From the sequence record PP430345: a stretch of 64,000 bases of DNA; one strand, written 5' to 3'. Each line of letters begins with the position of its first letter. Position 1 is the first letter of the stretch. This DNA is from Escherichia phage vB_EcoM-LTH01. Position numbers and translations under genes: made by a program. Below, piece after piece: positions 9,733-60,056 of the stretch. Under the pieces are notes generated by a model. The model was given only the letters and a program-made list of their open reading frames with translations, searched no databases and was not told the origin of the DNA.

Positions 9733-10040
9733 CTTATCCTACGGTCACACAAGTCTGACCATCTATCTCTGAGCAAGGGATTTCAAAATGTCTCCCGTCC
9801 CCAAATACATCTCGCCACATAGTCTATTCGGAAGCGGGAGTCTATGCACACCCCTTGCGGTAAGTGACCTCACTTTGAGATCAGCATCTTCCTTATTCGA
9901 CGAGTTAAATTCTCTTTAAGGTAGCCAGTGTTCGCAGCACTAACTATGAGGTATCCGTAAGATGATTTCAGTCATCTACCGAAAAATTACACCAAGCAAC
10001 TACCTTAAAGAGAACTTCTTAGTAAAGGCCCTTGCGAGCC

Positions 10041-10421
10041 TTAATCTTCACCTTCTGCCATTTTATACTCACGAATCTGAGTAGTTAATGGAATAGCATC
10101 TTTAAATGCATCAGAAGGGCCTTGATGAGTTTCTGAATTTGCAGAAGTAGTTCCTCCTGCCAGATCCTCTTCATTATCTTCCATTGTGTACAGATTGTTT
10201 GCCTTTTCAGCTTGCTCAAGAATATACTTCGCAGTAGTTTCTTTAACTTTCTCTGTACCGGAAGTCAGTAGACCTTCCAGAGTTTTAATTGCTTGAGGAG
10301 TAAGTCTTGCAAACTCGGAACGAGCATGAAGAATTGCTCTCTCAGTATTGATTGCAATGCTTTCCTCTGTAGTAGGCCGACCGCGTTTTCGAGTAACGAT
10401 TTCAGCTTTAGCCATAAACAC
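10041..10421 (-). CDS. hypothetical protein with AT-hook-like KRGRP motif
   Basis: 126-aa ORF inside the tRNA region; N-terminal RKRGRPTTEE. Confidence 0.4.
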   Translation of the reverse strand: MFMAKAEIVTRKRGRPTTEESIAINTERAILHARSEFARLTPQAIKTLEGLLTSGTEKVKETTAKYILEQAEKANNLYTMEDNEEDLAGGTTSANSETHQGPSDAFKDAIPLTTQIREYKMAEGED

Positions 10422-10607
10422 CTCAATTCAGTCGATATAACTATATTAGCAGTATAATAGGATTATGTCAAGAACTTATTGAAATGTATTAAGAAATGAA
10501 ATGGGGGTGCGCCGTTTCTGCTGTAATCTACGTCGTTATCGTTGAGGGAACTCGTAGTCAGGGAACATCAGTCCGACGACTTATCGGGAGCGACCCGACT
10601 TCTTATG

Positions 10608-10682
10608 TGGTGGCCCTGGGTGGAATCGAACCACCGTCTGGCGATTATGAGTCGCTTGCTTGAACCGTCCAGCTACAGGGCC
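10608..10682 (-). tRNA. tRNA-Met (anticodon CAT)
   Basis: Acceptor GGCCCTG/CAGGGCC, anticodon loop CTCATAA, T-arm GGTGG-TTCGATT-CCACC, CCA encoded. Confidence 0.75.
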
Positions 10683-10697
10683 TGTATTTAAAAGAAC

Positions 10698-10782
10698 TTA
10701 GCGCGGGAGGAAGGACTCGAACCTTCATACTCCAATTACTCGATTAACGACGGTTTAGAAGACCGTTGAGATACACCCGCGC
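10698..10782 (-). ncRNA. tRNA-like element (Arg-TCT-like anticodon arm) lacking a recognisable D-arm
   Basis: Closing 10-bp stem TTAGCGCGGG/CCCGCGCTAA, canonical anticodon arm ACGGT-CTTCTAA-ACCGT, T-arm GAAGG-TTCGAGT-CCTTC, ~24-nt insert before T-arm; no 3' CCA encoded. Confidence 0.3.
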
Positions 10783-12795: not shown

Positions 12796-12880
12796 ACCCT
12801 TTATGCCCGTTTAGGCATACAATACTATATTAGATTTCCCTGGCTCGAAGCCTCTCGCCAAACCCTTTATCATTATAATT

Positions 12881-12929
12881 TATTCATTTCATTCATAAAT
12901 TATATAATAATTATTCATTTCATTCATAA
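12881..12929. repeat. perfect 18-bp direct repeat TATTCATTTCATTCATAA x2 in AT-rich divergent region
   Basis: Copies at 12881-12898 and 12912-12929. Confidence 0.8.
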
Positions 12930-12954
12930 TTATTATTAAAAACAATAAAAACAA

Positions 12955-13052: not shown

Positions 13053-13081
13053 TTGACATGGAGTTTTTACATAGGTATAGT
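13053..13081 (+). promoter_or_regulatory. sigma70-like promoter for rightward operon
   Basis: TTGACA, 17-bp spacer, TATAGT. Confidence 0.5.
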
Positions 13082-17273: not shown

Positions 17274-17735
17274 GTGGAAGCTTTAATTATCGCTGTTGTG
17301 GGGATTACACTTTACCTTTCCGTAATTTTGGGCGTTCCCGTGTTGCTTACTCGTAAGCCAGCAGGTAAGATCTTGAAGTTGATTCGTGAAGGATCTTCTC
17401 GGTTTGAGGTACATTCTGGAGTTTTTGTTCCTGAGGGCCATGAAGATCCTTGTGAGGATAATGATGATCTTTGGTATGTTGATTATACAATTGTTGATAC
17501 GGTCACAGGTAAGGTTACTTACATTGAAAAGGTTTGTGGTATTATCTCCGATAGCCTTTTCGTAAATGGCGATCTGTTCTGGATGAATGATTATGAAGGT
17601 ACACGACTTTACCACACCTGTCGTCGAATCGTTAAGCGACGTAATAAGGCTTCAAAAAAGGACAAACGATCTAAGTTCGAGATCGAAAAGGATGAAGCAC
17701 GTAAAGTTGCACTAGAAACTTATAAAGACTGTTGA
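17274..17735 (+). CDS. hypothetical membrane-anchored protein
   Basis: 153 aa; N-terminal hydrophobic helix; GTG start after GAGGAGG. Confidence 0.4.
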   Translation: MEALIIAVVGITLYLSVILGVPVLLTRKPAGKILKLIREGSSRFEVHSGVFVPEGHEDPCEDNDDLWYVDYTIVDTVTGKVTYIEKVCGIISDSLFVNGDLFWMNDYEGTRLYHTCRRIVKRRNKASKKDKRSKFEIEKDEARKVALETYKDC

Positions 17736-17788
17736 CAATGATAAGGGGCCATTATACATGACCCCAAGTTAAACGAAAGGAGATTAAA

Positions 17789-19059: not shown

Positions 19060-19144
19060 CATAAGATATTGAATGGGGTATTCTTACCCCATCGAAGCAA
19101 AGAAGTTAACTTACTATTTAAACATTAAAGAGGAGAAATACAAA

Positions 19145-19781: not shown

Positions 19782-20024
19782 ATGAATATTAATTTTAACG
19801 ACGCAACTTACGAAAAACTGAAATACCTGGCTACTCTGGAAGGTCGATCAGTTGCAGCGTATATCTCCCAAAAGATGGATGAGCTTACAGGTCAACTGGT
19901 AAATGTTGAATATTCACTGAATGATATTCCAGAAGGTACGCCTCTTGCTCATATGGATCTAACTCCAAAGCCACGAATCGTAGATCGTGACACTGATGAA
20001 CAAGATGGTTACGCAAATTGGTAA
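19782..20024 (+). CDS. putative ribbon-helix-helix DNA-binding protein
   Basis: N-terminal ATYEKLKYLATLEGRSVAAYISQKMDEL resembles Arc/CopG-type RHH. Confidence 0.35.
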   Translation: MNINFNDATYEKLKYLATLEGRSVAAYISQKMDELTGQLVNVEYSLNDIPEGTPLAHMDLTPKPRIVDRDTDEQDGYANW

Positions 20025-20033
20025 AAATTTTTA

Positions 20034-20058
20034 AGCCGCCCTTCGGGGCGGTTTTTCT
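20034..20058 (+). terminator. rho-independent terminator
   Basis: GCCGCCCTTCGGGGCGG hairpin then T5. Confidence 0.7.
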
Positions 20059-20069
20059 TTATCTATCTC

Positions 20070-20097
20070 TTGACACCTGCCTCCAGTTCTGTATAAT
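20070..20097 (+). promoter_or_regulatory. sigma70-like promoter
   Basis: TTGACA, 16-bp spacer, TATAAT. Confidence 0.55.
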
Positions 20098-20126
20098 ACC
20101 TATATCAACCAACAACAGGAGATAAA

Positions 20127-20315
20127 ATGAATATTAAACTTACAAAAGAAATGATTGCCGTGTTTATGCAAATTTCGTCAGTTCGTGATGGGATGAGTAA
20201 AGAATCTAAGAGTATTAAGTTACCTGAAGTTGACTCTCTCGTAACACTTCTTGAAAATGTTGGAGCACTTATTCTTCGTGAAATGACCAAGCAAGATTCT
20301 ACTACAGAGGGGTGA
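20127..20315 (+). CDS. hypothetical protein
   Basis: 62-aa ORF with AGGAG RBS directly downstream of promoter. Confidence 0.4.
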
Positions 20316-22506: not shown

Positions 22507-23010
22507 ATGAAATTAACTATCGAATTAATCCCAAGCACAGCTTGGGACAACAACCTTCGGTCTTACCTTACCCAATCTGGTTGGGACAAAGTTCGTCGAA
22601 AGTGCTATCAAGAAGCAAACTACCACTGTGAGGTTTGTGGAGGTCAAGGTGGAAATGGACGTAAGCATCCATGTGAAGCTCACGAGGTATGGGACTTTGT
22701 TGATGGGGAAGTTGTGTTAAGGGGTGTGATCGCTTTATGTCCTCCTTGCCACGAAGTAAAACATATCGGTCGTGCTCAAGCGACTGGTAACATGACTCGT
22801 GCAATACGACACTTTATGAAAGTTAACGGTGTTGACAAGAAGGCTGCTGAAGAATACATTAGGCAAGCTGCGGCATTGTGGCGAGAAAGAAGTAAGCAAG
22901 AGTGGTCTTTGAATATCGATTATCTGTATGAATACATGGGTAAAGATTTCAAATTCAAGCGACCAGTAAAAGAAGTTAAAGAAGACGAAGATTACGGCGA
23001 AGCATTTTAA
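22507..23010 (+). CDS. putative HNH-like zinc-finger nuclease
   Basis: CEVCG...HEVWDF...LCPPCHEVKH pattern; 167 aa. Confidence 0.35.
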   Translation: MKLTIELIPSTAWDNNLRSYLTQSGWDKVRRKCYQEANYHCEVCGGQGGNGRKHPCEAHEVWDFVDGEVVLRGVIALCPPCHEVKHIGRAQATGNMTRAIRHFMKVNGVDKKAAEEYIRQAAALWRERSKQEWSLNIDYLYEYMGKDFKFKRPVKEVKEDEDYGEAF

Positions 23011-23023
23011 TAAGGAGAGGTCT

Positions 23024-24133
23024 ATGGGTTATCCGGTAATTGAAGATTGGTCAGGTATTATCGAAGACAACGTGGTTGTTGCACTTGATCTCGATCAAAC
23101 TTGCTATGTTGCTGCGGCTGGTGCAGAAAAAAGAACGATCATCGCTCGACACAAGGAGACTGGAAGGGAAAAAGAATTTCGCAACAAAACAGAGTTTTGG
23201 GGTCGCCAAAAGAATGTTGTTGGTGGATGGTTAAAAGACCAAAACATTAATATGGAAGCAAAAGCGGTTGCTCGCGGAAAAGAATTTACTCCGTGGACCC
23301 GTGATGATTTCGAGATCATTGAAAAGCAAACTCCAGAACCAGTGGAGAACTGTCTTCACTTATTGAAGATTAAGATCAATGCTATTCTTGAACACGTAGG
23401 ATCAGCAAACGGGCTTGGTGTTTTAGGTGGGAGTGGTAACTTCCGTCTTGCACTCCCGACCCCTGAGATCTATAAGGGTAACCGTGAAGATACTTTACGT
23501 CCTCTGTTGCTTGGGGAGACTCGTCGATATGTTCAGCAGAAGTATGGTGCGATCATTGTGGATGGTATTGAGGCAGATGATTATTTATCGATCCTTGGTT
23601 ACAAAGGTTATTTAAATTATCGAAAGACTGGAAAGTTCAGTCATATTGTGGCATCCTTTGATAAGGATCAGGTTCAGGTTCCTTCTCTGTTGTTTAACAC
23701 GATGCGTGATTCAACAGAGCGTACTTGGAAACATCCTGAACTCTGGTTGATTGATGATTCTATGGGTGAGATCTGGATGGAGTCTGGAAAGGTAAAAGGC
23801 TGGGGTAAGAAATTCTTCGGTTACCAAATGCTATTTGGTGATGCAGCGGATAACGTTAAACCATATCAAACCTTCGAGGGTCTTCGCTTTGGTGAAACAT
23901 CGGCTTTCCAGGTCATCTCCCCTTGTGCAGACGAGAAGAGTATGTGGTTAGCTATTATTGATCAGTATAAGAAGTGGTTTCCTGAGGGTGTTGAATATAC
24001 AGACCACTTAGGGAATCATCGTAAGTTTTCAGCGGGTCAGTGGGCTTCTGTCATTTTCCAGTGTGTTTATATGAAGCGCACAGAAAATGATAAGACAACA
24101 TTATCCTCAACTTTAAAACGGGTAGGTATTTAA
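23024..24133 (+). CDS. putative 5'-3' exonuclease / flap endonuclease (RNase H-like)
   Basis: VVVALDLDQT and IVDGIEADDYL resembling FEN-family metal-binding motifs. Confidence 0.4.
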   Translation: MGYPVIEDWSGIIEDNVVVALDLDQTCYVAAAGAEKRTIIARHKETGREKEFRNKTEFWGRQKNVVGGWLKDQNINMEAKAVARGKEFTPWTRDDFEIIEKQTPEPVENCLHLLKIKINAILEHVGSANGLGVLGGSGNFRLALPTPEIYKGNREDTLRPLLLGETRRYVQQKYGAIIVDGIEADDYLSILGYKGYLNYRKTGKFSHIVASFDKDQVQVPSLLFNTMRDSTERTWKHPELWLIDDSMGEIWMESGKVKGWGKKFFGYQMLFGDAADNVKPYQTFEGLRFGETSAFQVISPCADEKSMWLAIIDQYKKWFPEGVEYTDHLGNHRKFSAGQWASVIFQCVYMKRTENDKTTLSSTLKRVGI

Positions 24134-26391: not shown

Positions 26392-27486
26392 GTGACTAAT
26401 AAAGTAACTTTTACTGTTGAACAAGTTCTGCAACTGATGAAACACGGTTTGTCTCAGCGCGAAGTAGCTCGCCAATTGGGTAAAGAGTCTCAGGAATCTA
26501 CGGTTCGTAATATGATCCGTCGTGAAATTCAAAAGAATGATGTTTCAAGTGTTAAGGAACTCCTTGAAATCACCCCAGCTTATGAAGATTACGAAAACTA
26601 TGCAGAATATATGCAGCAGAAAGAGTCAGGTGGGGAGTCTGTCGCTAAGATTGAAAAAGATTTCATTGAAAAGATCAAAGAGCAGAACCCAGGTGCTAAA
26701 GTTTTCCTTGGTGACATTGAAACATCTCCTTCTATAGCATATTCGTTTGGACGATTTAAACAGTTCATTGCACCGAAGCAGGTAATTATGGAACCGTACA
26801 TGCTGACATTCGCTGGTAAGTGGCTGCACAACCCATCGATCTTCAGCCGGAAGCTGACTGACTATCCAGAAGAGTTTGCACGAGATCACCAGTCAGATCG
26901 CAAGTTGATCGAAGACCTGTGGAAAGTTCTGGACGAATGTGATATCTTTATCGCACATAATGCTCGCTTTGACCGTGGTTGGGCAAATCAGCGTTTCGCA
27001 TATTACGGTATGCAACCGCCAAGCCCCTACATCACGATCGATACATTGGCTGCACTGAAAGAAGCTTTCTCTCTTCCTTCAAATGCACTTGAAGCAGCAT
27101 GTAACTATTTTGAACTTGATAGTCGTAAGCTGTCGCATGAAGGTTTCAGTCTGTGGCGACGTTGTGTTGAAGGTGACCCAACCGCATTTGAAGAGATGGA
27201 AGAATATAACATTGGTGATATTCCAACGCTGGAAGAACTGTATCTGACTGTACGACCTTTCATGCGGAAACATCCGAACATTGCATTGTTCCACAAAGAT
27301 CAATCAACTATGCGTTGTGTTCGTTGTGGTAGTGACGACTTAGTTATTGAGGAAGGTAAGTCAGCAGTAACGTTCTTGTCTAAGTTCAAGGTGTATCGTT
27401 GCCAGGAATGTGGTTCTTGTGCACGAGATCGTCAGAATGTTCGCGAGAAGGCAGCGATGAAGAAAACGCTGGCAAACATTCTGTAA
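26392..27486 (+). CDS. DnaQ-like 3'-5' exonuclease (DEDDh) with C-terminal zinc finger
   Basis: Exo motifs FLGDIETS and IFIAHNARFDRGW; C-terminal CxxC...CxxC. Confidence 0.55.
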   Translation: MTNKVTFTVEQVLQLMKHGLSQREVARQLGKESQESTVRNMIRREIQKNDVSSVKELLEITPAYEDYENYAEYMQQKESGGESVAKIEKDFIEKIKEQNPGAKVFLGDIETSPSIAYSFGRFKQFIAPKQVIMEPYMLTFAGKWLHNPSIFSRKLTDYPEEFARDHQSDRKLIEDLWKVLDECDIFIAHNARFDRGWANQRFAYYGMQPPSPYITIDTLAALKEAFSLPSNALEAACNYFELDSRKLSHEGFSLWRRCVEGDPTAFEEMEEYNIGDIPTLEELYLTVRPFMRKHPNIALFHKDQSTMRCVRCGSDDLVIEEGKSAVTFLSKFKVYRCQECGSCARDRQNVREKAAMKKTLANIL

Positions 27487-27494
27487 TTTTATTT

Positions 27495-27522
27495 AACCGC
27501 CCTTCGGGGCGGTTTTTTTTAT
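27495..27522 (+). terminator. rho-independent terminator
   Basis: ACCGCCCTTCGGGGCGGT hairpin then T8. Confidence 0.75.
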
Positions 27523-30223: not shown

Positions 30224-30252
30224 TTGACATTGGTTAGTTAATTTTATATTAT
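30224..30252 (+). promoter_or_regulatory. sigma70-like promoter
   Basis: TTGACA, 17-bp spacer, TATTAT. Confidence 0.5.
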
Positions 30253-30287
30253 TATCGGCGCTGGGGCATATTGCCCCTCTTTTTAAA

Positions 30288-33315: not shown

Positions 33316-33355
33316 CAATGAATAACCACCCTTTGGGGTGGTTCTGAGGAGGAAT

Positions 33356-33544
33356 ATGAAGTTTATCTCGTGGTTCTTTATTGATCGTTGGACATTTAAA
33401 CGGCAGGCAAAAAGATTCGGAACGAAATATCCAGGTTGTGGCACAGAGATCTATATGGCTGCACTTCGTAACAATCTTGCTGGTTGTCGAGACAATAAAT
33501 ATATTGCAAAAGATATGTTTAAGATTCTCAACAAGTACAATTGA
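33356..33544 (+). CDS. hypothetical small protein
   Basis: Start at ATG 33356 after GAGGAGG. Confidence 0.35.
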   Translation: MKFISWFFIDRWTFKRQAKRFGTKYPGCGTEIYMAALRNNLAGCRDNKYIAKDMFKILNKYN

Positions 33545-33548
33545 AATT

Positions 33549-33573
33549 AACCGCCCTTCTGGGCGGTTTTTTA
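33549..33573 (+). terminator. rho-independent terminator
   Basis: CCGCCCTTCTGGGCGG hairpin then T6. Confidence 0.7.
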
Positions 33574-33601
33574 TTGACTTTGATAACGTAATCTGTATAA
33601 T
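33574..33601 (+). promoter_or_regulatory. sigma70-like promoter
   Basis: TTGACT, 16-bp spacer, TATAAT. Confidence 0.55.
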
Positions 33602-33630
33602 AAACCACATAAAAGAGACAGGAGGAAAAG

Positions 33631-33972
33631 ATGAAGATTTGGCTTGATGATTTGAGAGATCCGAAAGATTACGGGCATGATGATGCCACCTGGTTTAAAA
33701 ATTCTGACCAGTTTATCGAGTTCCTTGAGGACCCTAATAAAATGTATCGTCGGGTAACAGAATGGCATTTCGACAATGACCTCGGTGAAGATTCAAAAGA
33801 AGGTTACCGCTGCTTAGAAATGTTAGAAGAAAAGCTTGTGTTTGGCAAACCGATCCTGTATCCTGCTGTTCTGTTTGTTCACACTTCAAATCCGAGTGCC
33901 GCACAAAAGTTTATGGCAGCAAAGGAAGTCTTTAAGCGATATGGGATTGAAATTTTAAGAAATAACTATTGA
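33631..33972 (+). CDS. hypothetical protein
   Basis: 113-aa ORF with GGAGG RBS. Confidence 0.45.
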   Translation: MKIWLDDLRDPKDYGHDDATWFKNSDQFIEFLEDPNKMYRRVTEWHFDNDLGEDSKEGYRCLEMLEEKLVFGKPILYPAVLFVHTSNPSAAQKFMAAKEVFKRYGIEILRNNY

Positions 33973-33996
33973 TTTCCTGGTAAGTTTAGGTATAAT
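33969..33996 (+). promoter_or_regulatory. sigma70-like promoter upstream of nrdB
   Basis: TTGATT, 16-bp spacer, TATAAT. Confidence 0.4.
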
Positions 33997-37255: not shown

Positions 37256-39330
37256 TTATTGCAAAACGTGACGGGCGTGAAGAAACCTTGTGCACGGATA
37301 AGATCGGAGCAGCCCTTCGGGGCGCTCTTTTATCTGCTGGCACTAAAGCCGATATTGATAAACTTATTGCTAAAGTTGTCAGCCAGATTGAAGGGAAAGA
37401 CCGTGTATCGGTAGAAGAGATTCATAAGGTTGTTGAAAATACTCTAATGAGTCAGAAAAATCTTCAAGATGCTGCTCGATGCTATATCGAATATCGTCAT
37501 GACAGAGATTCAATTCGTGAAGGTAAAGGTAAACTTTATGCGGATATTAGTGGATTTTTGGATCAGACGGCTGAAGAATTTACTCGTGAGAATGCGAATA
37601 AGCCCAGCAACTTGGTAAATACTCATCGAGATTTACTGGCAGGTATTTTGAGTAAACATATTAGTGTTAATCAAATCTTACCGAAAGATCTTGCGGCTTG
37701 GCACAATGACGGATACGGCCACATTCATGATTTGGATTATCTGGTTAGTCCTTTGACAAACTGTTGCCTGGTTAACTATCGGGATATGCTGGAAAATGGT
37801 TTTAAGATTGGTAACGCAAAGATTGAAAAACCTAAATCTATTGGTGTAGCAACAACAGTTCTAACACAGATTATTCAGGCTGTAGCATCCAGTCAATACG
37901 GAGGACAAACATGTGCTCATATTGATGAGGGTTTGAAAACATATGTTGAGATGAGCCACAAAAAGAATGTTGAGTTTTTAGAAAAGATCGGAAAACCTAA
38001 TGAATCTTTAGCAATGGAAATGACAGACAGGGATGTGTATGATGCAATGCAAACTCTGGTTTATCAGGTTAATACTTTAATGAGTGTTAACGGTCAATCA
38101 CCTTTCATTACGATCAGCATGGGTCTTGAAACTTCAGAGTTTGGGAGAATGATTACCAAAAACTACCTAAAGGTCCATACCGAGGGGCTTGGTAAAGATA
38201 AGGTAACTCCAGTTTTTCCGAAGGTTGTCTTCTTTTTGCAAGATGGTGTAAACCTGAAGCCAGATGATGTTAATTATGATCTGAAACAAATGGCAATGCA
38301 GTGCTGTGTTGAAAGGATCTATCCTGACTTCATCTCTGTGCCATTAAATAAAGAGGTTACTGGATCTTCAGATGGGAAAGTTACAAGTATGGGTTGTAGG
38401 AGCTTCCTTTCCAAATTTACGACAGAACATGGAGAGAAGTATGATGGGAGGTTCAACCTGGGTGTTGTGTCGATCAACCTACCATTGATTGCGGCAGAGT
38501 ATAAAGCCAAAGGTGGTAATTTTTATGCACTTCTTGACCAGCACATGGAAAACGCATATGAATCGCATATGGTTCGTGTCAACCGACTTAAAAATGTAAA
38601 AGCTTCTCAAAACCCCACGCTTTTTATGGAAGGAGCTTTGGCAAGACTGGGAGCTAACGAAAAGATCGGTAAGTTATTCTACGATGGGTATGCCTCAATC
38701 AGTGTCGGGTATGTGGGATTATCTGAAACTGTTGAGATTATTGTTGGGAAAAAGGATAAGGGTTTGGCGGTAATGATCCTCAATCACATGAAAATAAAAT
38801 GTGATGAATTTAAAGAGCGCTCACGTATTTCCTTTAGCCTCTACGGAACACCTGCTGAGAGTTTATGTTATCGTTTCGCTACCAAGCTTAAGGAAAAATA
38901 TCCAGGGGTTCTTGATCGGGATTACCTTACAAACTCCTTTCATGCACCTGTTTGGGAACATTCAGATCCTTTCAGTAAATGGAAGTACGAGTCAGGTTTT
39001 GCAACAATAAGTTCTGGTGGTAATATCGGGTACGTTGAAACGCCAAACTTGAAAAATAACATTAAGGCGCTTGAAACATTGATCGACTATGGTTATGATA
39101 CTATACCTTACTTTGGTGTCAATCAACCTGTGGACCAGTGCTTTAAGTGTAACTTTAGTGGTGAGTTTCATGCAACAGCAAAAGGTTTTGAATGCCCTTG
39201 TTGCGGGAATAAAGAAGAAGGAACAATTTCAGTAATCCGACGGGTTTCTGGTTATTTATCGGCTCCGAATGCAAGACCTTATAATAAGGGTAAGATGCAG
39301 GAGGTCTTACAAAGGGAAAAACACGTTTGA
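37252..39330 (+). CDS. nrdD: anaerobic ribonucleoside-triphosphate reductase
   Basis: 692 aa; C-terminal Cys cluster and glycyl-radical region RRVSGYLS. Confidence 0.85.
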   Translation: MIIAKRDGREETLCTDKIGAALRGALLSAGTKADIDKLIAKVVSQIEGKDRVSVEEIHKVVENTLMSQKNLQDAARCYIEYRHDRDSIREGKGKLYADISGFLDQTAEEFTRENANKPSNLVNTHRDLLAGILSKHISVNQILPKDLAAWHNDGYGHIHDLDYLVSPLTNCCLVNYRDMLENGFKIGNAKIEKPKSIGVATTVLTQIIQAVASSQYGGQTCAHIDEGLKTYVEMSHKKNVEFLEKIGKPNESLAMEMTDRDVYDAMQTLVYQVNTLMSVNGQSPFITISMGLETSEFGRMITKNYLKVHTEGLGKDKVTPVFPKVVFFLQDGVNLKPDDVNYDLKQMAMQCCVERIYPDFISVPLNKEVTGSSDGKVTSMGCRSFLSKFTTEHGEKYDGRFNLGVVSINLPLIAAEYKAKGGNFYALLDQHMENAYESHMVRVNRLKNVKASQNPTLFMEGALARLGANEKIGKLFYDGYASISVGYVGLSETVEIIVGKKDKGLAVMILNHMKIKCDEFKERSRISFSLYGTPAESLCYRFATKLKEKYPGVLDRDYLTNSFHAPVWEHSDPFSKWKYESGFATISSGGNIGYVETPNLKNNIKALETLIDYGYDTIPYFGVNQPVDQCFKCNFSGEFHATAKGFECPCCGNKEEGTISVIRRVSGYLSAPNARPYNKGKMQEVLQREKHV

Positions 39331-42071: not shown

Positions 42072-42581
42072 GTGGCAGCATTGAAACCTAAAGCAGAGCG
42101 CCGTGAAAATGATCGCTATGAAACTCCGAAATGGGCAGTAGATGCTTTCTTGAATTTAGTTCCAATCCGTCAGGATTGGACTTATCTGGAACCTTGCAGA
42201 GCCTCTGGAAGTTTTTATAATGAAATGCCAATTGGTTCAGCCTGGGGAGAGATTCAAGAAGGTGTTGATTATCTTGCAACTAAATACAATAAGGTAGATT
42301 GTGTGTTAACTAATCCACCTTACAATTTAGCTCAAGAGTTTGTAGAAAAAGCGCACAAGGATGCTGATGTAGTGATCATGCTTCTTCGTTTAGGTTTCCT
42401 TGAGAGTACCAAACGTGTTGAGTTCTGGAAGCAATACCCTGTTGATCACTTAGTTACTTTATCTAAGCGACCTTCTTTTACTGACGATGGTAAAACAGAT
42501 GGTGCAGCATATGGTTATTTTATTTGGGATAAAAAAGGTAAACTTGGTTTAACAAAACCTTTTTACTGGATTCACCCTTAA
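42072..42581 (+). CDS. small putative N6-adenine DNA methyltransferase
   Basis: EPCRASGSF (motif I-like) then LTNPPY (motif IV); only 169 aa. Confidence 0.4.
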   Translation: MAALKPKAERRENDRYETPKWAVDAFLNLVPIRQDWTYLEPCRASGSFYNEMPIGSAWGEIQEGVDYLATKYNKVDCVLTNPPYNLAQEFVEKAHKDADVVIMLLRLGFLESTKRVEFWKQYPVDHLVTLSKRPSFTDDGKTDGAAYGYFIWDKKGKLGLTKPFYWIHP

Positions 42582-42587
42582 ATTTAA

Positions 42588-42613
42588 AGGTCACCTTTGG
42601 GTGGCCTTTTTTA
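42588..42613 (+). terminator. rho-independent terminator
   Basis: GGTCACCTTTGGGTGGCC hairpin then T6. Confidence 0.65.
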
Positions 42614-42641
42614 TTGACTTGAATTCATGGATGTGTATAAT
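42614..42641 (+). promoter_or_regulatory. sigma70-like promoter
   Basis: TTGACT, 16-bp spacer, TATAAT. Confidence 0.55.
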
Positions 42642-42666: not shown

Positions 42667-42996
42667 ATGAAATATTACATTTACTTTCGAAGAGTGTTTG
42701 GTATCAAGACAAAGAAATTAGAAGGCTACGAGATGAAGGTCACCCTTGAAACTCTCAACAACCTTGAAGATTACGATGTTATTCCTGTTGCACCAAAGTC
42801 AGAAGATGAGTATAATCGTTTTGAAAGGATGCTTAAGTTAGTTGAGTGTCCGATCGATAATATTTCTTTTGTTAAGCAAGACCCGCTTGAAATCATCAAC
42901 TATCTTCGTGGTCAAAAGCAAGACATTAAGAGAAATACAAACTGGAAAGAAGAAATAAAAGATTGGTCTTTAAACTTAAGAGGGGAAAGAGTATGA
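42667..42996 (+). CDS. hypothetical protein
   Basis: 109-aa ORF with AGGAG RBS. Confidence 0.45.
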   Translation: MKYYIYFRRVFGIKTKKLEGYEMKVTLETLNNLEDYDVIPVAPKSEDEYNRFERMLKLVECPIDNISFVKQDPLEIINYLRGQKQDIKRNTNWKEEIKDWSLNLRGERV

Positions 42997-43157
42997 CTAG
43001 AAATGGTAGTTCAGCATACGAGAAGGGCCGAGCAGCCGGATTCAAGTTTGGGATGTTCAAGAGAAACAACCCGTATGATCCAAACACCATGCCGGAGCAA
43101 TTTCAAGATTGGGAATCAGGATTTACAAAAGGGTATCAAGAAAAGGGGTGGTTATGA
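42993..43157 (+). CDS. ribosome modulation factor (RMF)-like small protein
   Basis: 54 aa from ATG 42993; GRAAGF...NPY...QDWESGF parallels E. coli RMF RGYQAG...CPY...QWLGGW (recalled). Confidence 0.35.
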   Translation: MTRNGSSAYEKGRAAGFKFGMFKRNNPYDPNTMPEQFQDWESGFTKGYQEKGWL

Positions 43158-43198
43158 GTGGATATGTGGGGATGGAAATAATAGGAGAAGAGAGAGTA

Positions 43199-44449
43199 AT
43201 GAAAGTTTACTTGGTAGGTGGCGCAGTTCGTGATGAACTGATGAGTGTTGAAAGTAAGGATCGGGACTATGTAGTCGTCGGCGCGACCCATGAAGAAATG
43301 ATTGAAAAGGGATTTACTAAGGTTGGTGCAGCTTTCCCTGTGTACCTTGAACCAAACACAAAAGAAGAGTACGCTCTTGCTCGAACGGAAAGATCAACAG
43401 GTCCTGGTTATCACGACTTCGAGGTTGTGTTCTCTCCCGACGTTACAATTGAACAAGACCTGATGCGAAGAGATTTGACCATTAATGCTATTGCCAAGGA
43501 TCTTTCTACGGGTGAAATTATTGACCCTTGCGGTGGTGTACTCGATATTGAACTTCGTCGGTTACGTTGTGTATCCACTAAAGCATTTATCGAAGACCCT
43601 TTACGTGTATACCGATTAGCCAGATTACATGCCAGATACGGCGGCGAGTTTACAATTGATCCTGAGACTTGGGGAATGTGCAAGGATGTTGATTTAAGTG
43701 CATTGCCAAAAGAGCGTAAATTTGCAGAGATTAAGAAATGCTTTAGTGATCAGTCAGAAATGAATAAACCTTCGGTAATGATCCGTATGTTGACTCAACT
43801 GGGAGAATTTCCTGAGCTTGTGGATTTATACGATGTTGTTCAACCCAAGGAGCACCACCCTGAAGGTGATGCATTTGTTCACACTTTACTTTGCATGGAT
43901 TATGCCCAAGCGACTCGTGCAAGTGAAGCTGTGAAGTGGGCAGTTCTGTGTCACGACTTAGGGAAATGCATTTATTGGTTAACAGGTAAATTGCACGGGC
44001 ATGAAGAACATGGTATCAAGTTGACTGAACAAGTTTGCGATCGCTTTGGTGTTCCTAACAATTGGAAGAAGTTAGCTTTAGCTGTAACTGAGCACCATAC
44101 ACGACTTCACCGTATCAAAGAGATGAAGCCAAAGAAAGTTTACGACTTGTTGGTAGCCTTACGTGGTGAAAAGGACCAGGCATTCCTTTCTGAGTTTATT
44201 GACGCTTGCATCTGTGATGCTCGTGGTCGTGGCCCTGAAAAAATGTTTGACAACTACACCCAGCCTTTGGTATTATTCTCAGCACTGGCGGGGATTGTTC
44301 AAAACAGCGTTGCAATCTCAAAAGAAAGTAAAGAGATTTCTGAAAGATTTGCTGGACGTCCAGAAGAGATCAAGAATAGAATCCGAAATGTAAAAGTAAG
44401 GTACGTTACACAATACATCGATAAGATGAAGGAGAGTGAAAATGGTTGA
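43199..44449 (+). CDS. cca: tRNA nucleotidyltransferase (CCA-adding enzyme) with HD domain
   Basis: MKVYLVGGAVRD head motif, HD-domain histidines (CHDLGK); start at ATG 43199 after AGGAGAAG. Confidence 0.8.
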   Translation: MKVYLVGGAVRDELMSVESKDRDYVVVGATHEEMIEKGFTKVGAAFPVYLEPNTKEEYALARTERSTGPGYHDFEVVFSPDVTIEQDLMRRDLTINAIAKDLSTGEIIDPCGGVLDIELRRLRCVSTKAFIEDPLRVYRLARLHARYGGEFTIDPETWGMCKDVDLSALPKERKFAEIKKCFSDQSEMNKPSVMIRMLTQLGEFPELVDLYDVVQPKEHHPEGDAFVHTLLCMDYAQATRASEAVKWAVLCHDLGKCIYWLTGKLHGHEEHGIKLTEQVCDRFGVPNNWKKLALAVTEHHTRLHRIKEMKPKKVYDLLVALRGEKDQAFLSEFIDACICDARGRGPEKMFDNYTQPLVLFSALAGIVQNSVAISKESKEISERFAGRPEEIKNRIRNVKVRYVTQYIDKMKESENG

Positions 44450-49778: not shown

Positions 49779-49784
49779 CTTTAG

Positions 49785-49818
49785 GCCAGTCACCGAAAGG
49801 TGGCTGGCTTTTCTTTTA
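49785..49818 (+). terminator. rho-independent terminator
   Basis: GCCAGTCACCgaaaGGTGGCTGGC hairpin then T-rich tract. Confidence 0.6.
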
Positions 49819-52121: not shown

Positions 52122-52243
52122 ACGCTCTCAGAACGATTCTAACGAGGTCTACGACGAGGTAAGGTGATTTATCATTCCCTTAAGAAAACCTCGTCAAAAT
52201 CGCTTCTGCGGGGCTTATATTTGATATGTAGAGAGATTATTAA

Positions 52244-55176: not shown

Positions 55177-56376
55177 ATGTTAGAAATGTTGAACTTAGGT
55201 GCTGTGGCCTCTCTACCGCCGATTGATGGTGAAATTTCACCTGAATTTATCCAAGCGCAGCAATCGATAGTTATGTATCTTCACAGGCCAACTGGCAATC
55301 TTTACGGGTATGGTAATGCACCTGTATACCGATTCGGAGACGGTATCCCAACAGAAGTGCCGAGCTTTAAACTTATCTATTCAAACTGTAAATATTTCTG
55401 GTTGGGTCAGGCTAGTACACTTGTTGCAACAAACGATGATAAATTCTATTATGCTGGGGTCAGAAACGCATTTCCACCACTGGGGACAGGTGGTGGTAAC
55501 GTTGCTTACTTTACTGAAGTTACAGTACATTTTAACAATATTGGTGTGACACCTGATGATATAAAAACTCTGGCGCTCGGTAGCGGATCTTGTAGGCTTC
55601 TGACAAAAGATGGTCGTGTTTTCTGCTGTGGTCTTAACTCTAATGGTGAGTGTGGGAACGGTACAAGAAATATGATTGCAAACTTTGTCCAGATCACCAA
55701 TATGGGACCTATATCTCAATTGGCTACAAGGGCTTTCGGTACTCATTTCTTAACTGAAGATGGCAGGGAATTCTTTGCAGGGTACGATGCTTACGGGGAA
55801 AGTGGCCTAGGTGCTCTTAACAGCCACTTACAAACTCCAACATTGGTTACTTCGGGTGTTAAAAACATAATTGTTGCTACGGTATGTACTTGGAGAATAA
55901 TGCAAAATGGAGACGTGTATTGGAGCGGTTTGAATACTCAAGGTTCTGCGGGAACAGGTTCATTTAACAACGCAGGTACGGTCCTAAGACCTATAAAAAA
56001 CGATGCCTTGAGTGGAAACTTACCGGAGGGTGATTTATTATATCCATCAGGCATCCAAACAGGTGATGCAACGGGTGCTCCGATCATTTGTTTCGGGAGA
56101 AACACTATCAAAAACGGTGGTGAAAACGGATCAGGTCAAGTGGGTGATGGTGTAAGTTATACATCGGTATATAACTATGTGGACATGTACAAACCTGCAA
56201 CCTTCGGAGATAAAAAGGTTATTGGGGTGGCTAAAGATTATGTACGATCATTTATCTTAACTGAAGATTATCAATTGTTTGCCGCAGGTGGTAGAACAGC
56301 AAGTGGATGGACACTCCCTGATGGAGGGACCAGTGTTACACCCATGCGCCTCATGGCTAGTATGCCTTGGTACTAA
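55177..56376 (+). CDS. RCC1-like beta-propeller repeat protein (paralogue 1)
   Basis: Starts MLEMLNLG; repeated Gly-rich units e.g. CCGLNSNGECGNGT, WSGLNTQGSAGTG. Confidence 0.55.
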   Translation: MLEMLNLGAVASLPPIDGEISPEFIQAQQSIVMYLHRPTGNLYGYGNAPVYRFGDGIPTEVPSFKLIYSNCKYFWLGQASTLVATNDDKFYYAGVRNAFPPLGTGGGNVAYFTEVTVHFNNIGVTPDDIKTLALGSGSCRLLTKDGRVFCCGLNSNGECGNGTRNMIANFVQITNMGPISQLATRAFGTHFLTEDGREFFAGYDAYGESGLGALNSHLQTPTLVTSGVKNIIVATVCTWRIMQNGDVYWSGLNTQGSAGTGSFNNAGTVLRPIKNDALSGNLPEGDLLYPSGIQTGDATGAPIICFGRNTIKNGGENGSGQVGDGVSYTSVYNYVDMYKPATFGDKKVIGVAKDYVRSFILTEDYQLFAAGGRTASGWTLPDGGTSVTPMRLMASMPWY

Positions 56377-56389
56377 TAAGGAGAATAGA

Positions 56390-57523
56390 ATGTTAGAGAT
56401 GTTAAATTTATCTGGCGCGGCAGGGAAGGTCCCATTTAAGTTGAAAAAGTTTGATATTACAGCAAGCGAAAGTATTCACTTGCTTAGTGAAGCTGGCAAT
56501 CTGTACTCAATATCACCTACAAATGTAAACTTATCGGGAACGGGTGTTACCACAACGCAGTGGACGTTAGTCTCTTCGGGTGTAGATGACTTCTGGGCTG
56601 GGCAAGCTTCGCTCTTGTTCAAAACAAAAGGGGGATCGTGGTTTATTACAGGGTATAACTTCTTCGTACCTAGAGTAGAGAATACGCCCGTTGACGTAAC
56701 GGCTAAGGTAATGGCAATCAATAAGCCGATAAGAAAAATAGAAATGGGTGCTAATGCGATCGCTTTCCTTTATACAGATAATACTCTGGCAGTTGCGGGA
56801 TCAGGCCCCCATTTAGGCTTAGGTTCCAATACTTCAGTCCCGAATTTAACTTATGTTGAACCACCAAATACTTCGTTGGGTATCAAAGATGTTGCGATAT
56901 TGGATACTTCAGTTACTACCTGGATTATAAGCGGGGGTGATGTATACGGATGTGGAAACGGGGCTTACTCTAAGTTTTCTTCTTCCAACGGGACAGGCCA
57001 AAGGACCTCTTTTGTTAGGATACCAAACCCAATAAACTCAGCACCACTTGCATTAAAGACTGGATATGAGTGCGTGTATATTTCAGGCTCACGCACAGAC
57101 GGGGATGAATTGATACTCGGCTTAGGTAGCAACGCATATGGGTCATTAGGTGCAGCATCTACTGTTGCAACTGTAACTGACATATCTGTAGTCACAAGCA
57201 GTGTTTATTCACCCGCTTACGGGTTTTACCCTCTCGCCCAAGGTCTTGTGAGGAGAATAAATAACAATATCGGTATTACGGGGAGGACTGCGGGGACAGG
57301 CTGGGGATTGGGAACTCAGACGTATTACGGTATTACTAGAATAACCACTACAGCAAGTCCGTTATGGGGTCAAATATTTCAAAGGGGTGAGTATACAAAC
57401 ACTTACGTTCTGGCAGAAGATGGTATTTTGTATGGGTCGGGTGGGGCTTCAACAGGTAAATTACCTGGTTACACAACAGATCAGTCAACCTATGTGCCAC
57501 TGGACCTTACCGGACTTGAATAA
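56390..57523 (+). CDS. RCC1-like beta-propeller repeat protein (paralogue 2)
   Basis: Start at ATG 56390 (MLEMLNLS) after AAGGAG; same repeat type. Confidence 0.55.
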   Translation: MLEMLNLSGAAGKVPFKLKKFDITASESIHLLSEAGNLYSISPTNVNLSGTGVTTTQWTLVSSGVDDFWAGQASLLFKTKGGSWFITGYNFFVPRVENTPVDVTAKVMAINKPIRKIEMGANAIAFLYTDNTLAVAGSGPHLGLGSNTSVPNLTYVEPPNTSLGIKDVAILDTSVTTWIISGGDVYGCGNGAYSKFSSSNGTGQRTSFVRIPNPINSAPLALKTGYECVYISGSRTDGDELILGLGSNAYGSLGAASTVATVTDISVVTSSVYSPAYGFYPLAQGLVRRINNNIGITGRTAGTGWGLGTQTYYGITRITTTASPLWGQIFQRGEYTNTYVLAEDGILYGSGGASTGKLPGYTTDQSTYVPLDLTGLE

Positions 57524-57532
57524 GGAAAAATT

Positions 57533-58672
57533 ATGTTAGAGATGATGAACTTAGGTTCTGTCGAATTGCCAGAAGTGGAAGGTAACGTTAAGAAATTCGC
57601 CGCCGGAGGTACGGGGATTGTTGTACTTATGAAATCCGGCAACGCCTACGGTATCGGAGATCAATACTTCAGCGGTACAGGGGGGAATGTTACAACATGG
57701 AGGCTTCTGGCAAGAAACGTTGCAGATATATGGGCTGCAACTGGCTCTGTGCTTATGAGGACAACCGCAGATAGATGGTTGTTTATGGGGTTTAACCAAT
57801 ATTTTAATACTGGTTTTGGAACTACGATAACCACCCCCAGAGATATAACTACAGATATGCCTATACCCGAAGGATTTGAGATCAAGCAGTTGGTACTCGG
57901 GTATCGTAACTTGGCTGTTGTCTTTACCAATGGGCGGTATGCAATGTGCGGGACTAATAACGCAGGAGGTCTGGGGACAGGGGACACTTTTGCAGTAAGA
58001 ACCTTAACCTTAAGAACTGACTTCACAAACGTTGAAAAAATAGATCTTGATTGGGCAACCTACGACACATCTTATCTTCTTACCCAAGCTGGTGAAGTTT
58101 ATGTATCAGGTGTTTCAAATAATGGACAAAACGGGACAACTTCAAACACTACAACTTGGTTTAGGCAAAGCCCAATTAGTGGTGGTACGGTAGTTGACAT
58201 AATCGCGACAACGCTTGGGTTTTTTAGGGTTGTACTTTTAAATGGTAATTACTACGTCTACGCACAAGGGCGAAGTTCGTCAGGGAGTCTTGGGGTAAAT
58301 AACTCAGGTAACATAAACGTTCTTTCACCCTCATTGGTATTTTCTAATGTACCTTCAAGACCTCCTTTGTACATTGGTCACCTTAGCGCCCGTATTCTCC
58401 ACCCCGAAGAAAGGGTATACTATACAGGGGCGGCTACGGGTAGTTTACAAGGAGCAGGTGCACAATTTCAGTCGTCGTATTCAGTATTTACACGGCTTGC
58501 AGAGACTGTACCGTATGGTGGAGAATATTCATCCCTAAAAGGTGGCTATGTTGCACACTACTATGTAGATAAAGGAAACCTATATGGTGTCGGTAATAGC
58601 AGTGCAGGATTGCTCCCAGGTTACATAGGTACACAACTCTTCGAATTTACACCGTTGGAATTGCCGGAGTAA
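57533..58672 (+). CDS. RCC1-like beta-propeller repeat protein (paralogue 3)
   Basis: MLEMMNLG; near-collinear with paralogue 4 (FMGFNQYFNTGFGTT, TLTLRTDFTNVEKIDLDW). Confidence 0.55.
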   Translation: MLEMMNLGSVELPEVEGNVKKFAAGGTGIVVLMKSGNAYGIGDQYFSGTGGNVTTWRLLARNVADIWAATGSVLMRTTADRWLFMGFNQYFNTGFGTTITTPRDITTDMPIPEGFEIKQLVLGYRNLAVVFTNGRYAMCGTNNAGGLGTGDTFAVRTLTLRTDFTNVEKIDLDWATYDTSYLLTQAGEVYVSGVSNNGQNGTTSNTTTWFRQSPISGGTVVDIIATTLGFFRVVLLNGNYYVYAQGRSSSGSLGVNNSGNINVLSPSLVFSNVPSRPPLYIGHLSARILHPEERVYYTGAATGSLQGAGAQFQSSYSVFTRLAETVPYGGEYSSLKGGYVAHYYVDKGNLYGVGNSSAGLLPGYIGTQLFEFTPLELPE

Positions 58673-58694
58673 AAAACTTCAAAAGGGGAATTAA

Positions 58695-59846: not shown

Positions 59847-59862
59847 CAAATTAATAAACACA

Positions 59863-59886
59863 AACCGCCTTTGGGCGGTTTTTTAT
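59863..59886 (+). terminator. rho-independent terminator
   Basis: ACCGCCTTTGGGCGGT hairpin then T6 after the RCC1-like array. Confidence 0.7.
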
Positions 59887-60056
59887 TACCTATCGCTTCA
59901 CAGAACGCATCGTAACGACCTAAACTGACTAACCTACCCGAATGTATACCCTACTTAAATAACCTCGTGAGAAGCCTTCTAAGAGGCTTTAAAAAGTTCT
60001 TGCATTCTCCCATTTTGTCCTGTACATTAAGTTCATCAACTAAACAGGAGGCTAAC

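What the first reader, a model, noticed from the sequence alone, without database searches (positions are those of the whole stretch)
20034..20097. Recurrent terminator-promoter cassette built on a near-identical hairpin
At least four rightward terminators use the same hairpin core (CCGCCCTTCGGGGCGG at 20036 and 27497; CCGCCCTTCTGGGCGG at 33551; CCGCCTTTGGGCGG at 59866), and three terminators (20034, 33549, 42588) are followed within about 15 bp by a TTGAC(A/T)-16/17-TATAAT promoter. Reuse of one cassette suggests modular transcription units and possible recombination hotspots for gene-block exchange.
Basis: seen in the sequence. Interest (0 to 1): 0.35.

Follow-up and report, generated by a model that had tools for sequence, protein, structure and literature searches.

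The report
Ordinary phage terminator-promoter units
These are compact "stop, then restart" transcription signals between early genes of an rV5-like E. coli phage: a very stable hairpin terminator followed by a near-consensus host-type promoter, which is real and conserved but an ordinary, already described kind of element.

Summary
The window comes from a Vequintavirinae (rV5-like) coliphage, 92-96% identical to UPEC06, A5-4, A7_1, A73 and W70. CCGCCCTTCGGGGCGG occurs exactly at 20036 and 27497, with one loop change at 33551, and as a shorter version at 59865. Three hairpins (20033, 33549, 42586) are followed 5-16 nt later by TTGAC(A/T)-16-TATAAT. All of this is far above chance.

They are intrinsic terminators with C(UUCG)G-type tetraloops, joined to sigma-70 promoters. 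They split the rightward DNA-metabolism cluster into transcription units. Across five genomes the stems and both hexamers never vary (0 of 96 columns), while loops, spacers and UTRs do (48 of 227).

Two sites are orthologous in the Certrevirus genus (CR3, phiTE). The phiTE and P7_Pc records already annotate one of them as a terminator.

The hairpin is not a phage-specific repeat. The exact 22-mer occurs in 74 IMG/VR loci, mostly with unrelated flanks, and in at least 120 bacterial genomes from many phyla.

The "recombination hotspot" idea is mostly unsupported. Only 1 of 9 ORF-level indels abuts a cassette, its breakpoints lie in ribosome-binding sites, and mosaic boundaries are not enriched at cassettes. 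The nrdA-nrdB gap does look like the PeSL cassettes of T4-like phages. Interest is low.

The parts
20033..20062 (+). Intrinsic terminator after the 80-aa gene 19782-20024: AAGCCGCCC-TTCG-GGGCGGTTT followed by a T-tract.
   Evidence: Folds at -16 kcal/mol, z = -3.6. Stem invariant in 5 genomes. Orthologous in CR3, phiTE and related phages, and annotated as a terminator in phiTE and P7_Pc.
20070..20097 (+). Sigma-70 promoter TTGACA-16-TATAAT (12/12) upstream of gene 20127-20315 and the arn-like genes.
   Evidence: Hexamers invariant while 6 of 16 spacer positions vary. Conserved as TTGACT-16-TATACT in Certrevirus.
27495..27522 (+). Intrinsic terminator AACCGCCC-TTCG-GGGCGGTT plus T8, after the exonuclease gene 26392-27486. 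No promoter follows; the RBS of 27546 comes directly.
   Evidence: Folds at -15.1 kcal/mol.
33324..33343 (+). Hairpin AACCACCC-TTTG-GGGTGGTT directly after the nrdA stop codon, with no T-tract. It is the positional counterpart of the Certrevirus nrdA terminator and carries a compensatory G-C to A-T change.
33549..33573 (+). Intrinsic terminator AACCGCCC-TTCT-GGGCGGTT plus T6, after the small ORF 33356-33544.
   Evidence: Folds at -15.9 kcal/mol. Relatives have the loop TTCG or TTTG.
33574..33601 (+). Sigma-70 promoter TTGACT-16-TATAAT upstream of the cREC_REC-domain ORF 33631-33972.
33969..33996 (+). Second promoter, TTGATT-16-TATAAT, directly upstream of nrdB. Its 5' UTR aligns with that of the Certrevirus nrdB promoter.
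42586..42613 (+). Intrinsic terminator AAAGGTCACC-TTTG-GGTGGCCTTT plus a T-tract, after the Dam methylase gene 42072-42581. This is a different stem family.
   Evidence: Folds at -15.1 kcal/mol.
42614..42641 (+). Sigma-70 promoter TTGACT-16-TATAAT upstream of gene 42667-42996.
59862..59887 (+). Intrinsic terminator AAACCGCC-TTTG-GGCGGTTT plus a T-tract, after the last RCC1-like paralog. No promoter follows.
   Evidence: Folds at -12.8 kcal/mol.
30224..30285 (+). The reverse arrangement after thyX: promoter TTGACA-17-TATTAT, then hairpin GGGGCATATTGCCCC plus a T-tract.
   Evidence: A7_1 carries a different hairpin at the same place.
49783..49818 (+). Strong GAAA-tetraloop terminator (12-bp stem) with no promoter.
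   Evidence: Folds at -21.9 kcal/mol.
2080..2103 (-). Twin of the 42586 hairpin (AAAGGTCACC-TTCG-GGTGGCCTTT) after the major capsid gene on the other strand.
17732..17765 (+). -35 box followed by a 21-bp palindrome. In all four relatives this site is a 12/12 promoter with a stem-loop over the -10 box; in the window the palindrome is inverted.

Best explanation
These are ordinary regulatory punctuation marks of a lytic rV5-like (Vequintavirinae) coliphage.

Mechanism. Each hairpin is a Rho-independent terminator. It has a 5-7 bp G+C core closed on a UUCG-type tetraloop, flanked by an A-tract and a T-tract, and it stops host RNA polymerase arriving from upstream genes. At three sites a near-consensus sigma-70 promoter (TTGAC[A/T], 16-nt spacer, TATAAT) begins 5-16 nt after the stem. 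The host holoenzyme therefore re-initiates at once for the next block. The terminator's T-tract doubles as the A/T-rich stretch just upstream of the -35 box. The rightward DNA-metabolism cluster (about 13-62 kb) is thereby cut into units ending at 20033, 27495, 33549, 42586, 49783 and 59862.

Origin. The sites are inherited by descent and kept by purifying selection. The shared hairpin sequence mostly reflects convergence on one favoured terminator design, perhaps with occasional copying within the genome.

Shown versus inferred. Shown: sequence, fold, position, the conservation pattern and orthology. Inferred: actual termination and initiation.
For: Identity of the phage.

Hairpins, T-tracts and energies.

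Promoters and their coupling to terminators:
- 4 pattern matches in the window against 0.05 expected.
- 3 coupled pairs in the window against 0.08 expected, and 5 of 27 promoters against 0.19 expected across the whole UPEC06 genome.

Selection: 0 of 96 stem and hexamer columns vary in five genomes, against 48 of 227 loop, spacer, gap and UTR columns (p = 1.7e-8).

Structure is kept when sequence changes:
- A compensatory CCGCCC/GGGCGG to CCACCC/GGGTGG change at the nrdA hairpin.
- A different hairpin at the same spot in A7_1.

Orthology: the 20033 cassette is 80-87% identical over about 90 nt in CR3, CR8, CR9, phiTE, CB7, KaOmega and others, behind the orthologous gene. It is annotated as a terminator in phiTE and P7_Pc. 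The hairpin-plus-promoter between nrdA and nrdB is present in Certrevirus.

Generality of the design:
- 12 UPEC06 terminators use TTCG loops.
- 5 of rV5's 20 published terminators have TTCG loops, and several sit next to published promoters (PMC3606486).
- The exact 22-mer occurs in 74 IMG/VR loci, mostly with unrelated flanks, and in at least 120 bacterial genomes.

Sigma-70-type promoters and Rho-independent terminators are already reported for rV5 and Certrevirus (PMC3606486, PMC7344957). The stability of UUCG hairpins in phage T4 mRNA is established knowledge (PMC4371310).
Against: There are no transcript data; termination efficiency and start sites are inferred.

27495, 49783 and 59862 have no recognisable sigma-70 promoter downstream. 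Either these terminators leak or an unrecognised promoter class serves the next genes, so the clean insulated-unit picture is incomplete.

Some facts suggest copying rather than pure convergence:
- The CCGCCC stem is 7-25 times commoner in IMG/VR than two composition-matched control stems.
- Exact repeats of whole terminators occur within one genome: CCGCCC three times, and GGTCACC twice on opposite strands.
- The 20033 and 27495 copies are 55% identical over the 40 nt upstream.
Confidence: 0.8

Rival explanations
1. The units are PeSL-type mobile regulatory cassettes. These are composite promoter and stem-loop elements that serve as portable homology patches, so that ORFs flanked by them are inserted, deleted or swapped. 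That is how they were described for T4-like phages.
For: The composite architecture matches the PeSL description (PMC2839356; PMC4122927). All three PeSL placements occur here: stem-loop before the -35 (three sites), after the -10 (30224-30277), and over the -10 (17732 in the relatives).

In Certrevirus the nrdA-nrdB gap holds one hairpin and one promoter. In the window it holds hairpin, ORF, hairpin plus promoter, ORF, promoter. The two extra ORFs are thus bracketed by duplicated cassette parts.

The slot just downstream of the 20070 promoter has three states: no extra ORF, one extra ORF, or about 1 kb of extra ORFs.

The divergent thyX block of A7_1 ends at the 30224-30277 unit.
Against: There are only 3-5 units in 64 kb and about 6 per genome, against about 50 PeSLs per T4-like genome. 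They sit between core nucleotide-metabolism genes, not in ORFan clusters.

Copies share only the hairpin, the T-tract and the hexamers, not about 100 bp.

Of 9 ORF-level indels among five genomes, one abuts a cassette. Its junctions are RBS repeats. The others are RBS-to-RBS or start/stop junctions, homing-endonuclease genes, or crossovers between paralogs.

Identity shifts at cassette junctions (median 0.041) are no larger than at 69 other gene junctions (median 0.050; p = 0.64).

The baseline of gene-content change against Certrevirus is high everywhere.
Confidence: 0.15
2. The hairpins act mainly as 3'-end stabilisers or processing barriers that protect mRNA from exonucleases, and termination is minor. 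The adjacent promoters are then independent features.
For: The 33324 hairpin has no T-tract yet is kept, with a compensatory change. Three hairpins have no promoter downstream, so read-through must feed the next genes. UUCG hairpins are known as stable mRNA structures in T4 (PMC4371310).
Against: Every other family member carries a T-tract of 5-8 T directly after the stem, which is the defining feature of intrinsic terminators. The tight coupling to promoters, 5-16 nt, is what a stop-then-restart arrangement predicts.
Confidence: 0.05

Closest known systems
Rho-independent terminators with C(UUCG)G or GNRA tetraloops, as in phage T4 mRNAs and the predicted terminators of rV5, phiTE and CB7
   Same: G+C stem, 4-nt UUCG-type loop closed by a C-G pair, A-tract and T-tract flanks, and a position just after stop codons. 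The orthologous site is annotated as a terminator in phiTE and P7_Pc. rV5's published table has five TTCG-loop terminators.
   Different: Nothing essential. In the window three loops have drifted to TTCT or TTTG where the relatives keep TTCG.
Sigma-70-type early/middle promoters of Vequintavirinae (33 predicted in rV5; 13 sites in CB7 with the consensus AAAA-N3-TGTTGAC-N19-TATAAT)
   Same: Near-consensus -35 and -10 boxes read by the unmodified host polymerase, upstream of early and DNA-metabolism genes (PMC3606486, PMC7344957).
   Different: In the three cassettes the A/T-rich upstream region is replaced by the terminator hairpin and its T-tract. The spacer is 16 nt. A TG lies directly against TATAAT, one base closer than a canonical extended -10.
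PeSLs (promoter-early stem-loops) of T4-like phages RB49/phi1, T4/PST and KVP40/nt-1
   Same: An intergenic composite of a strong sigma-70 promoter and a terminator-grade stem-loop. The stem-loop lies before the -35, over the -10 or after the -10. Some sites are associated with small variable ORFs.
   Different: A different phage lineage and about ten times fewer copies. They are not concentrated in ORFan-rich regions. Homology between copies is confined to the functional motifs. Indels and mosaic boundaries are not enriched at them among close relatives. Mini-circles were not tested.
Morons of lambdoid phages (a gene with its own promoter and terminator inserted between older genes)
   Same: The block from 33344 to 33968 between nrdA and nrdB brings its own terminator and promoter, compared with Certrevirus.
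   Different: It lies in a lytic phage and on the same strand as its neighbours. It has no evident fitness-factor gene; the ORFs are a 62-aa protein of unknown function and a cREC_REC-domain protein.

Membership tests
Rho-independent (intrinsic) terminator | G+C-rich stem of at least 5 bp with a 3-8 nt loop, far more stable than shuffled sequence | tested here: met
   Energies of -12.8 to -16 kcal/mol and z-scores of -3.6 to -5.2 for the five family members.
Rho-independent (intrinsic) terminator | A run of T (U in the RNA) directly 3' of the stem on the transcribed strand | tested here: met
   At least 5 T within 8 nt at 20033, 27495, 33549, 42586 and 59862. Not met at 33324.
Rho-independent (intrinsic) terminator | Located after a stop codon, co-oriented with the genes, and conserved in relatives | tested here: met
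   Each lies 2-16 nt after a stop codon. 0 of 60 stem columns vary in five genomes. The site is orthologous in Certrevirus.
Rho-independent (intrinsic) terminator | RNA 3' ends or polymerase release at the T-tract | not testable with these tools
   Needs Term-seq or in vitro transcription.
Sigma-70 promoter | -35 TTGACA and -10 TATAAT hexamers 16-18 nt apart | tested here: met
   Scores of 12/12, 11/12 and 11/12 with a 16-nt spacer. The pattern has 4 matches against 0.05 expected.
Sigma-70 promoter | Intergenic, upstream of an RBS and start codon, with hexamers under purifying selection | tested here: met
   Start codons lie 26-30 nt after the -10 box. 0 of 36 hexamer columns vary against 16 of 48 spacer columns.
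Sigma-70 promoter | A mapped transcription start | not testable with these tools
   Needs 5'-end mapping.
PeSL (Arbiol 2010; Comeau 2014) | An intergenic composite of a sigma-70-like early promoter and a stable stem-loop | tested here: met
   Three terminator-then-promoter units, one promoter-then-hairpin unit, and one hairpin over the -10 box in the relatives.
PeSL (Arbiol 2010; Comeau 2014) | Many copies (about 50 per genome), concentrated in hyperplastic ORFan regions | tested here: not met
   About 6 coupled units in the 143-kb UPEC06 genome, lying between nrd, thyX, dam and exonuclease genes.
PeSL (Arbiol 2010; Comeau 2014) | Sequence conservation between copies over about 100 bp, enough for homologous recombination | tested here: not met
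   Flank identity is at the random level for most pairs. Shared sequence is limited to about 23-35 nt of hairpin, T-tract and hexamers.
PeSL (Arbiol 2010; Comeau 2014) | Indels and replacements between close relatives preferentially abut the elements (10 of 14 in RB49/phi1) | tested here: not met
   1 of 9 indels, with junctions in RBS repeats. Mosaic boundaries are not enriched (p = 0.64). At the between-genus level the result is suggestive but has no proper baseline control.
PeSL (Arbiol 2010; Comeau 2014) | Formation of mini-circles by recombination between neighbouring elements | not testable with these tools
   Needs inverse PCR on infected cells.

The most novel reading that the evidence does not exclude
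Terminator-promoter composites act in Vequintavirinae, a lineage unrelated to T4, as PeSL-like portable junctions at which small ORFs are inserted or lost. The nrdA-nrdB gap (two ORFs bracketed by duplicated hairpin and promoter parts) and the variable slot downstream of the 20070 promoter would be footprints of this. A related reading is that promoter-embedded palindromes flip, as at 17745-17765, and so switch promoters off or on.
Probability: 0.15. Interest if true: 0.4.

Novelty: already known. Interest (0 to 1): 0.15.

Why it matters
Practically, the sites give a ready transcription-unit map for annotating this little-studied clade of E. coli phages, which are candidates for therapy. They also supply compact, strong, insulated 60-70 bp terminator-promoter parts.

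Conceptually the finding adds little. UUCG-loop terminators and sigma-70 promoters are textbook elements, already predicted or annotated in related phages. The only open point is whether such composites help shuffle genes outside the T4-like phages. The present data mostly argue against that among close relatives.

Tried and rejected
1. A phage-specific repeat or mobile element. Rejected: the exact 22-mer occurs in 74 IMG/VR loci, mostly with unrelated flanks, and in at least 120 bacterial genomes from many phyla. The 28-mer of hairpin plus T-tract plus -35 box has no exact match in IMG/VR.

2. Pure convergence with no preference for this stem. Not fully tenable: two composition-matched control stems gave only 3 and 11 loci.

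3. Cassette-mediated indels among the five close genomes. Breakpoints were mapped and were not in the cassettes.

4. Mosaic boundaries at cassettes. No enrichment was found, though power is low with n = 8.

5. A known structured RNA. Rfam found only five tRNAs.

6. A spread-mode NrdB tblastn search to sample nrdA-nrdB gaps across genera. It was uninformative because NrdB is too widespread. IMG/VR loci were used instead.

7. The CB7 supplementary promoter tables are not held as text.

8. The 65-nt similarity between 19995-20059 and 27456-27520 (D4). It runs out of frame into two unrelated genes. I treated it as borderline (uncorrected p below 0.001, 30 comparisons) and not as proof of duplication.

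Full report
What the window is. Megablast places the window in a small clade of E. coli myophages classified as Vequintavirinae (rV5-like). These are UPEC06, A5-4, A7_1, A73 and W70, at 92-96% identity and in the opposite orientation. Genes run rightward from about 13 kb to 62 kb. They encode DNA ligase, arn-like proteins, exonucleases, dNMP kinase, ThyX, NrdAB, NrdDG, PhoH, Dam and a CCA-adding enzyme, so this is an early/middle DNA-metabolism cluster. Late structural genes and a tRNA cluster lie on the other strand at 1-12 kb.

Checking the observation. The 16-mer CCGCCCTTCGGGGCGG is exact at 20036 and 27497 and has one loop mismatch at 33551, with none expected by chance. The shorter CCGCC-TTTG-GGCGG is at 59865. 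All fold as 8-9 bp hairpins including the A-T flanks, at -12.8 to -16 kcal/mol and z-scores of -3.6 to -5.2, and all are followed by T-tracts.

TTGACW-N16/17-TATAAT occurs four times against 0.05 expected. Three of these begin 16, 6 and 5 nt after the stems at 20033, 33549 and 42586, and all three spacers are 16 nt. Random placement would give about 0.08 such couplings in the window, where 3 are seen. Across the whole UPEC06 genome it would give 0.19, where 5 are seen.

Three details were missed or blurred. First, 42586 uses a different stem (GGTCACC), whose near-identical twin follows the major capsid gene on the other strand at 2080-2103. Second, further family members lie at 33324 (no T-tract) and 37308 (inside nrdD). 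Third, 30224-30277 has the reverse order, promoter then hairpin.

Evidence that the elements are functional. Across the five genomes no stem column (0 of 60) and no -35 or -10 column (0 of 36) varies. By contrast, 5 of 20 loop columns, 16 of 48 spacer columns, 14 of 87 gap columns and 13 of 72 UTR columns do vary (Fisher p = 1.7e-8).

Structure is also kept where sequence changes. The hairpin after nrdA reads CCACCC/GGGTGG in the window where Certrevirus phages read CCGCCC/GGGCGG, a compensatory pair. A7_1 carries a different hairpin at the thyX site.

The 20033 cassette, including its C-rich spacer and 5' UTR, is 80-87% identical over about 90 nt in CR3, CR8, CR9, PBES 02, phiTE, CB7, KaOmega and others. 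It sits behind the ortholog of the same upstream gene. The phiTE and P7_Pc records annotate exactly this hairpin as a terminator. A hairpin plus a 12/12 promoter also lies between nrdA and nrdB in those phages. These are therefore old, vertically inherited regulatory sites.

Why the same hairpin recurs. In the complete UPEC06 genome 12 terminators use a TTCG loop closed by C-G and several use GAAA. The stems fall into a few types: CCGCC(C) five times, CCACC(C) or TCACC four times, and GGGGGC twice. rV5's published table likewise lists five TTCG-loop terminators among 20.

The exact 22-mer AACCGCCCTTCGGGGCGGTTTT occurs in 74 IMG/VR loci, most with unrelated flanks. So this is a generic, convergently favoured terminator design built on the hyperstable UUCG tetraloop first noticed in T4 mRNA (PMC4371310).

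It is not merely one of many equivalent designs, however. Two composition-matched stems gave only 3 and 11 IMG/VR loci. Within the window, copies share nothing beyond the hairpin, the T-tract and the hexamers, with one exception: a borderline 55% identity over the 40 nt upstream of 20033 and 27495. Occasional copying within the genome cannot be excluded, and the 24-nt GGTCACC twins are the best case. It is not needed to explain the pattern.

Testing the recombination-hotspot idea. I mapped all large differences between the window and four relatives and read the junctions. There are nine ORF-level events in the rightward block.
- 19103: a probable homing-endonuclease ORF inserted in A73.
- 20121-20127: a 73-aa ORF.
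- 22510-23043: homing-endonuclease variants.
- 42996-43214: a small ORF.
- 52221-52243: a small ORF.
- 58672-59830: a fourth RCC1-like paralog in the window.
- 60973, 61259 and 61548: small ORFs.

Only the 20121 event abuts a cassette, and its junctions lie in two similar ribosome-binding sites downstream of the promoter, not in the cassette. That ORF has a homolog in CR3, so the window and UPEC06 lost it. The other events are RBS-to-RBS or start/stop junctions, endonuclease genes, or crossovers between paralogs.

The genomes are fine-scale mosaics. Even so, the identity shift across the eight cassette or terminator junctions (median 0.041) is no larger than across 69 other gene junctions (median 0.050; Mann-Whitney p = 0.64). 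Two junctions, 20075 and 30254, are high.

At greater divergence the picture is more suggestive. Downstream of the 20070-type promoter, Certrevirus phages carry about 1 kb of extra ORFs. The nrdA-nrdB gap holds one hairpin and one promoter in Certrevirus. In the window it reads hairpin, ORF, hairpin plus promoter, ORF, promoter. This resembles the PeSL cassettes of T4-like phages (PMC2839356, PMC4122927). Gene content differs at many junctions at that distance, however, so there is no proper baseline.

Comparison with known systems. The elements meet every sequence-testable criterion for intrinsic terminators and sigma-70 promoters. Both classes are already reported for rV5, with 33 promoters and 20 terminators, several of them adjacent (PMC3606486). 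They are also reported for Certrevirus (PMC7344957).

The units work like PeSLs in being composites of a promoter and a stem-loop. They fail three tested PeSL criteria: copy number and location, about 100 bp of homology between copies, and association with indels among close relatives. I therefore do not file them as PeSLs.

Verdict. The features are real and the functional reading is correct. They are ordinary and essentially already known. The hotspot speculation is largely unsupported by the available genomes. The main caveats are the absence of transcript data and the lack of recognisable promoters after 27495, 49783 and 59862, which implies leaky termination or another promoter class.

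Noticed in passing
window 17732-17765: In UPEC06, A5-4, A7_1 and A73 this site is a 12/12 promoter, TTGACA-16-TATAAT, with the hairpin GGGGTCAT/GTATA/ATGGCCCC over the -10 box. In the window the 21-bp palindrome (17745-17765) is the exact reverse complement. All 7 differences are explained by one inversion, which removes the TATAAT from the + strand. This looks like a hairpin flip that switches a consensus promoter off.
   Followed up: partly
window 55177-59846: Four tandem paralogs of about 380-400 aa with RCC1-like repeats (Pfam WD40_RLD, RCC1_2). The four relatives have three. The extra copy, 58695-59846, is only about 70-85% identical to UPEC06's last paralog and ends just before the 59862 terminator.
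   Followed up: partly
window 33356-33544 and 33631-33972: Two small ORFs lie between nrdA and nrdB and are absent from Certrevirus phages. The second is a cREC_REC (cyclic-phosphate processing receiver) domain protein, E = 2e-18. UPEC06 annotates it oddly as 'RNA ligase 1 and tail attachment protein'.
   Followed up: partly
L001 4132-4353 (A5-4); missing at window 20121-20127: A 73-aa ORF with a signal-peptide-like N-terminus lies directly behind the promoter in A5-4, A7_1 and A73. It is not annotated in A5-4. It has a 68-aa homolog in CR3-like phages and is deleted in the window and in UPEC06.
   Followed up: yes
window 33557-33560, 42596-42599, 59870-59873: Three of the window's terminator loops read TTCT, TTTG and TTTG where most or all of the relatives keep TTCG. 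The stems are untouched. Repeated C-to-T change at the loop C suggests a mutational hotspot in the single-stranded loop.
   Followed up: no
window 37308-37330: A terminator-like hairpin, GAGCAGCCC-TTCG-GGGCGCTC followed by TTTTAT, lies about 60 nt inside the nrdD coding sequence. It could be an attenuator or a coincidence.
   Followed up: no
window 9165-9186, 8424-8451 and 2080-2103 (minus strand): Terminators in the late region are followed within about 15-30 nt by GGTGATAAAATA, TGGTAATATA and GGCAAAATAG. These resemble the T4-late-like motif TggTAaAAtA reported for rV5, so the stop-then-restart layout may also apply to late genes with a different promoter class.
   Followed up: partly
L005 (A5-4), orthologs of window 42607 and 59879: A5-4 has T17 and T12 tracts where the other genomes have T6. 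This is either homopolymer slippage at terminator T-tracts or a sequencing artefact.
   Followed up: no
window 22507-23043 and 19103-19128: Homing-endonuclease genes differ in presence and type among the five genomes. They account for several of the largest indels.
   Followed up: partly
window 12880-12941: A tandem 31-nt A/T-rich repeat (84% identical) lies in the divergent region between the leftward and rightward gene blocks, just upstream of two tandem 11/12 promoters at 13053 and 13091.
   Followed up: no
window 9238-10780 (minus strand): A cluster of five tRNA genes.
   Followed up: no
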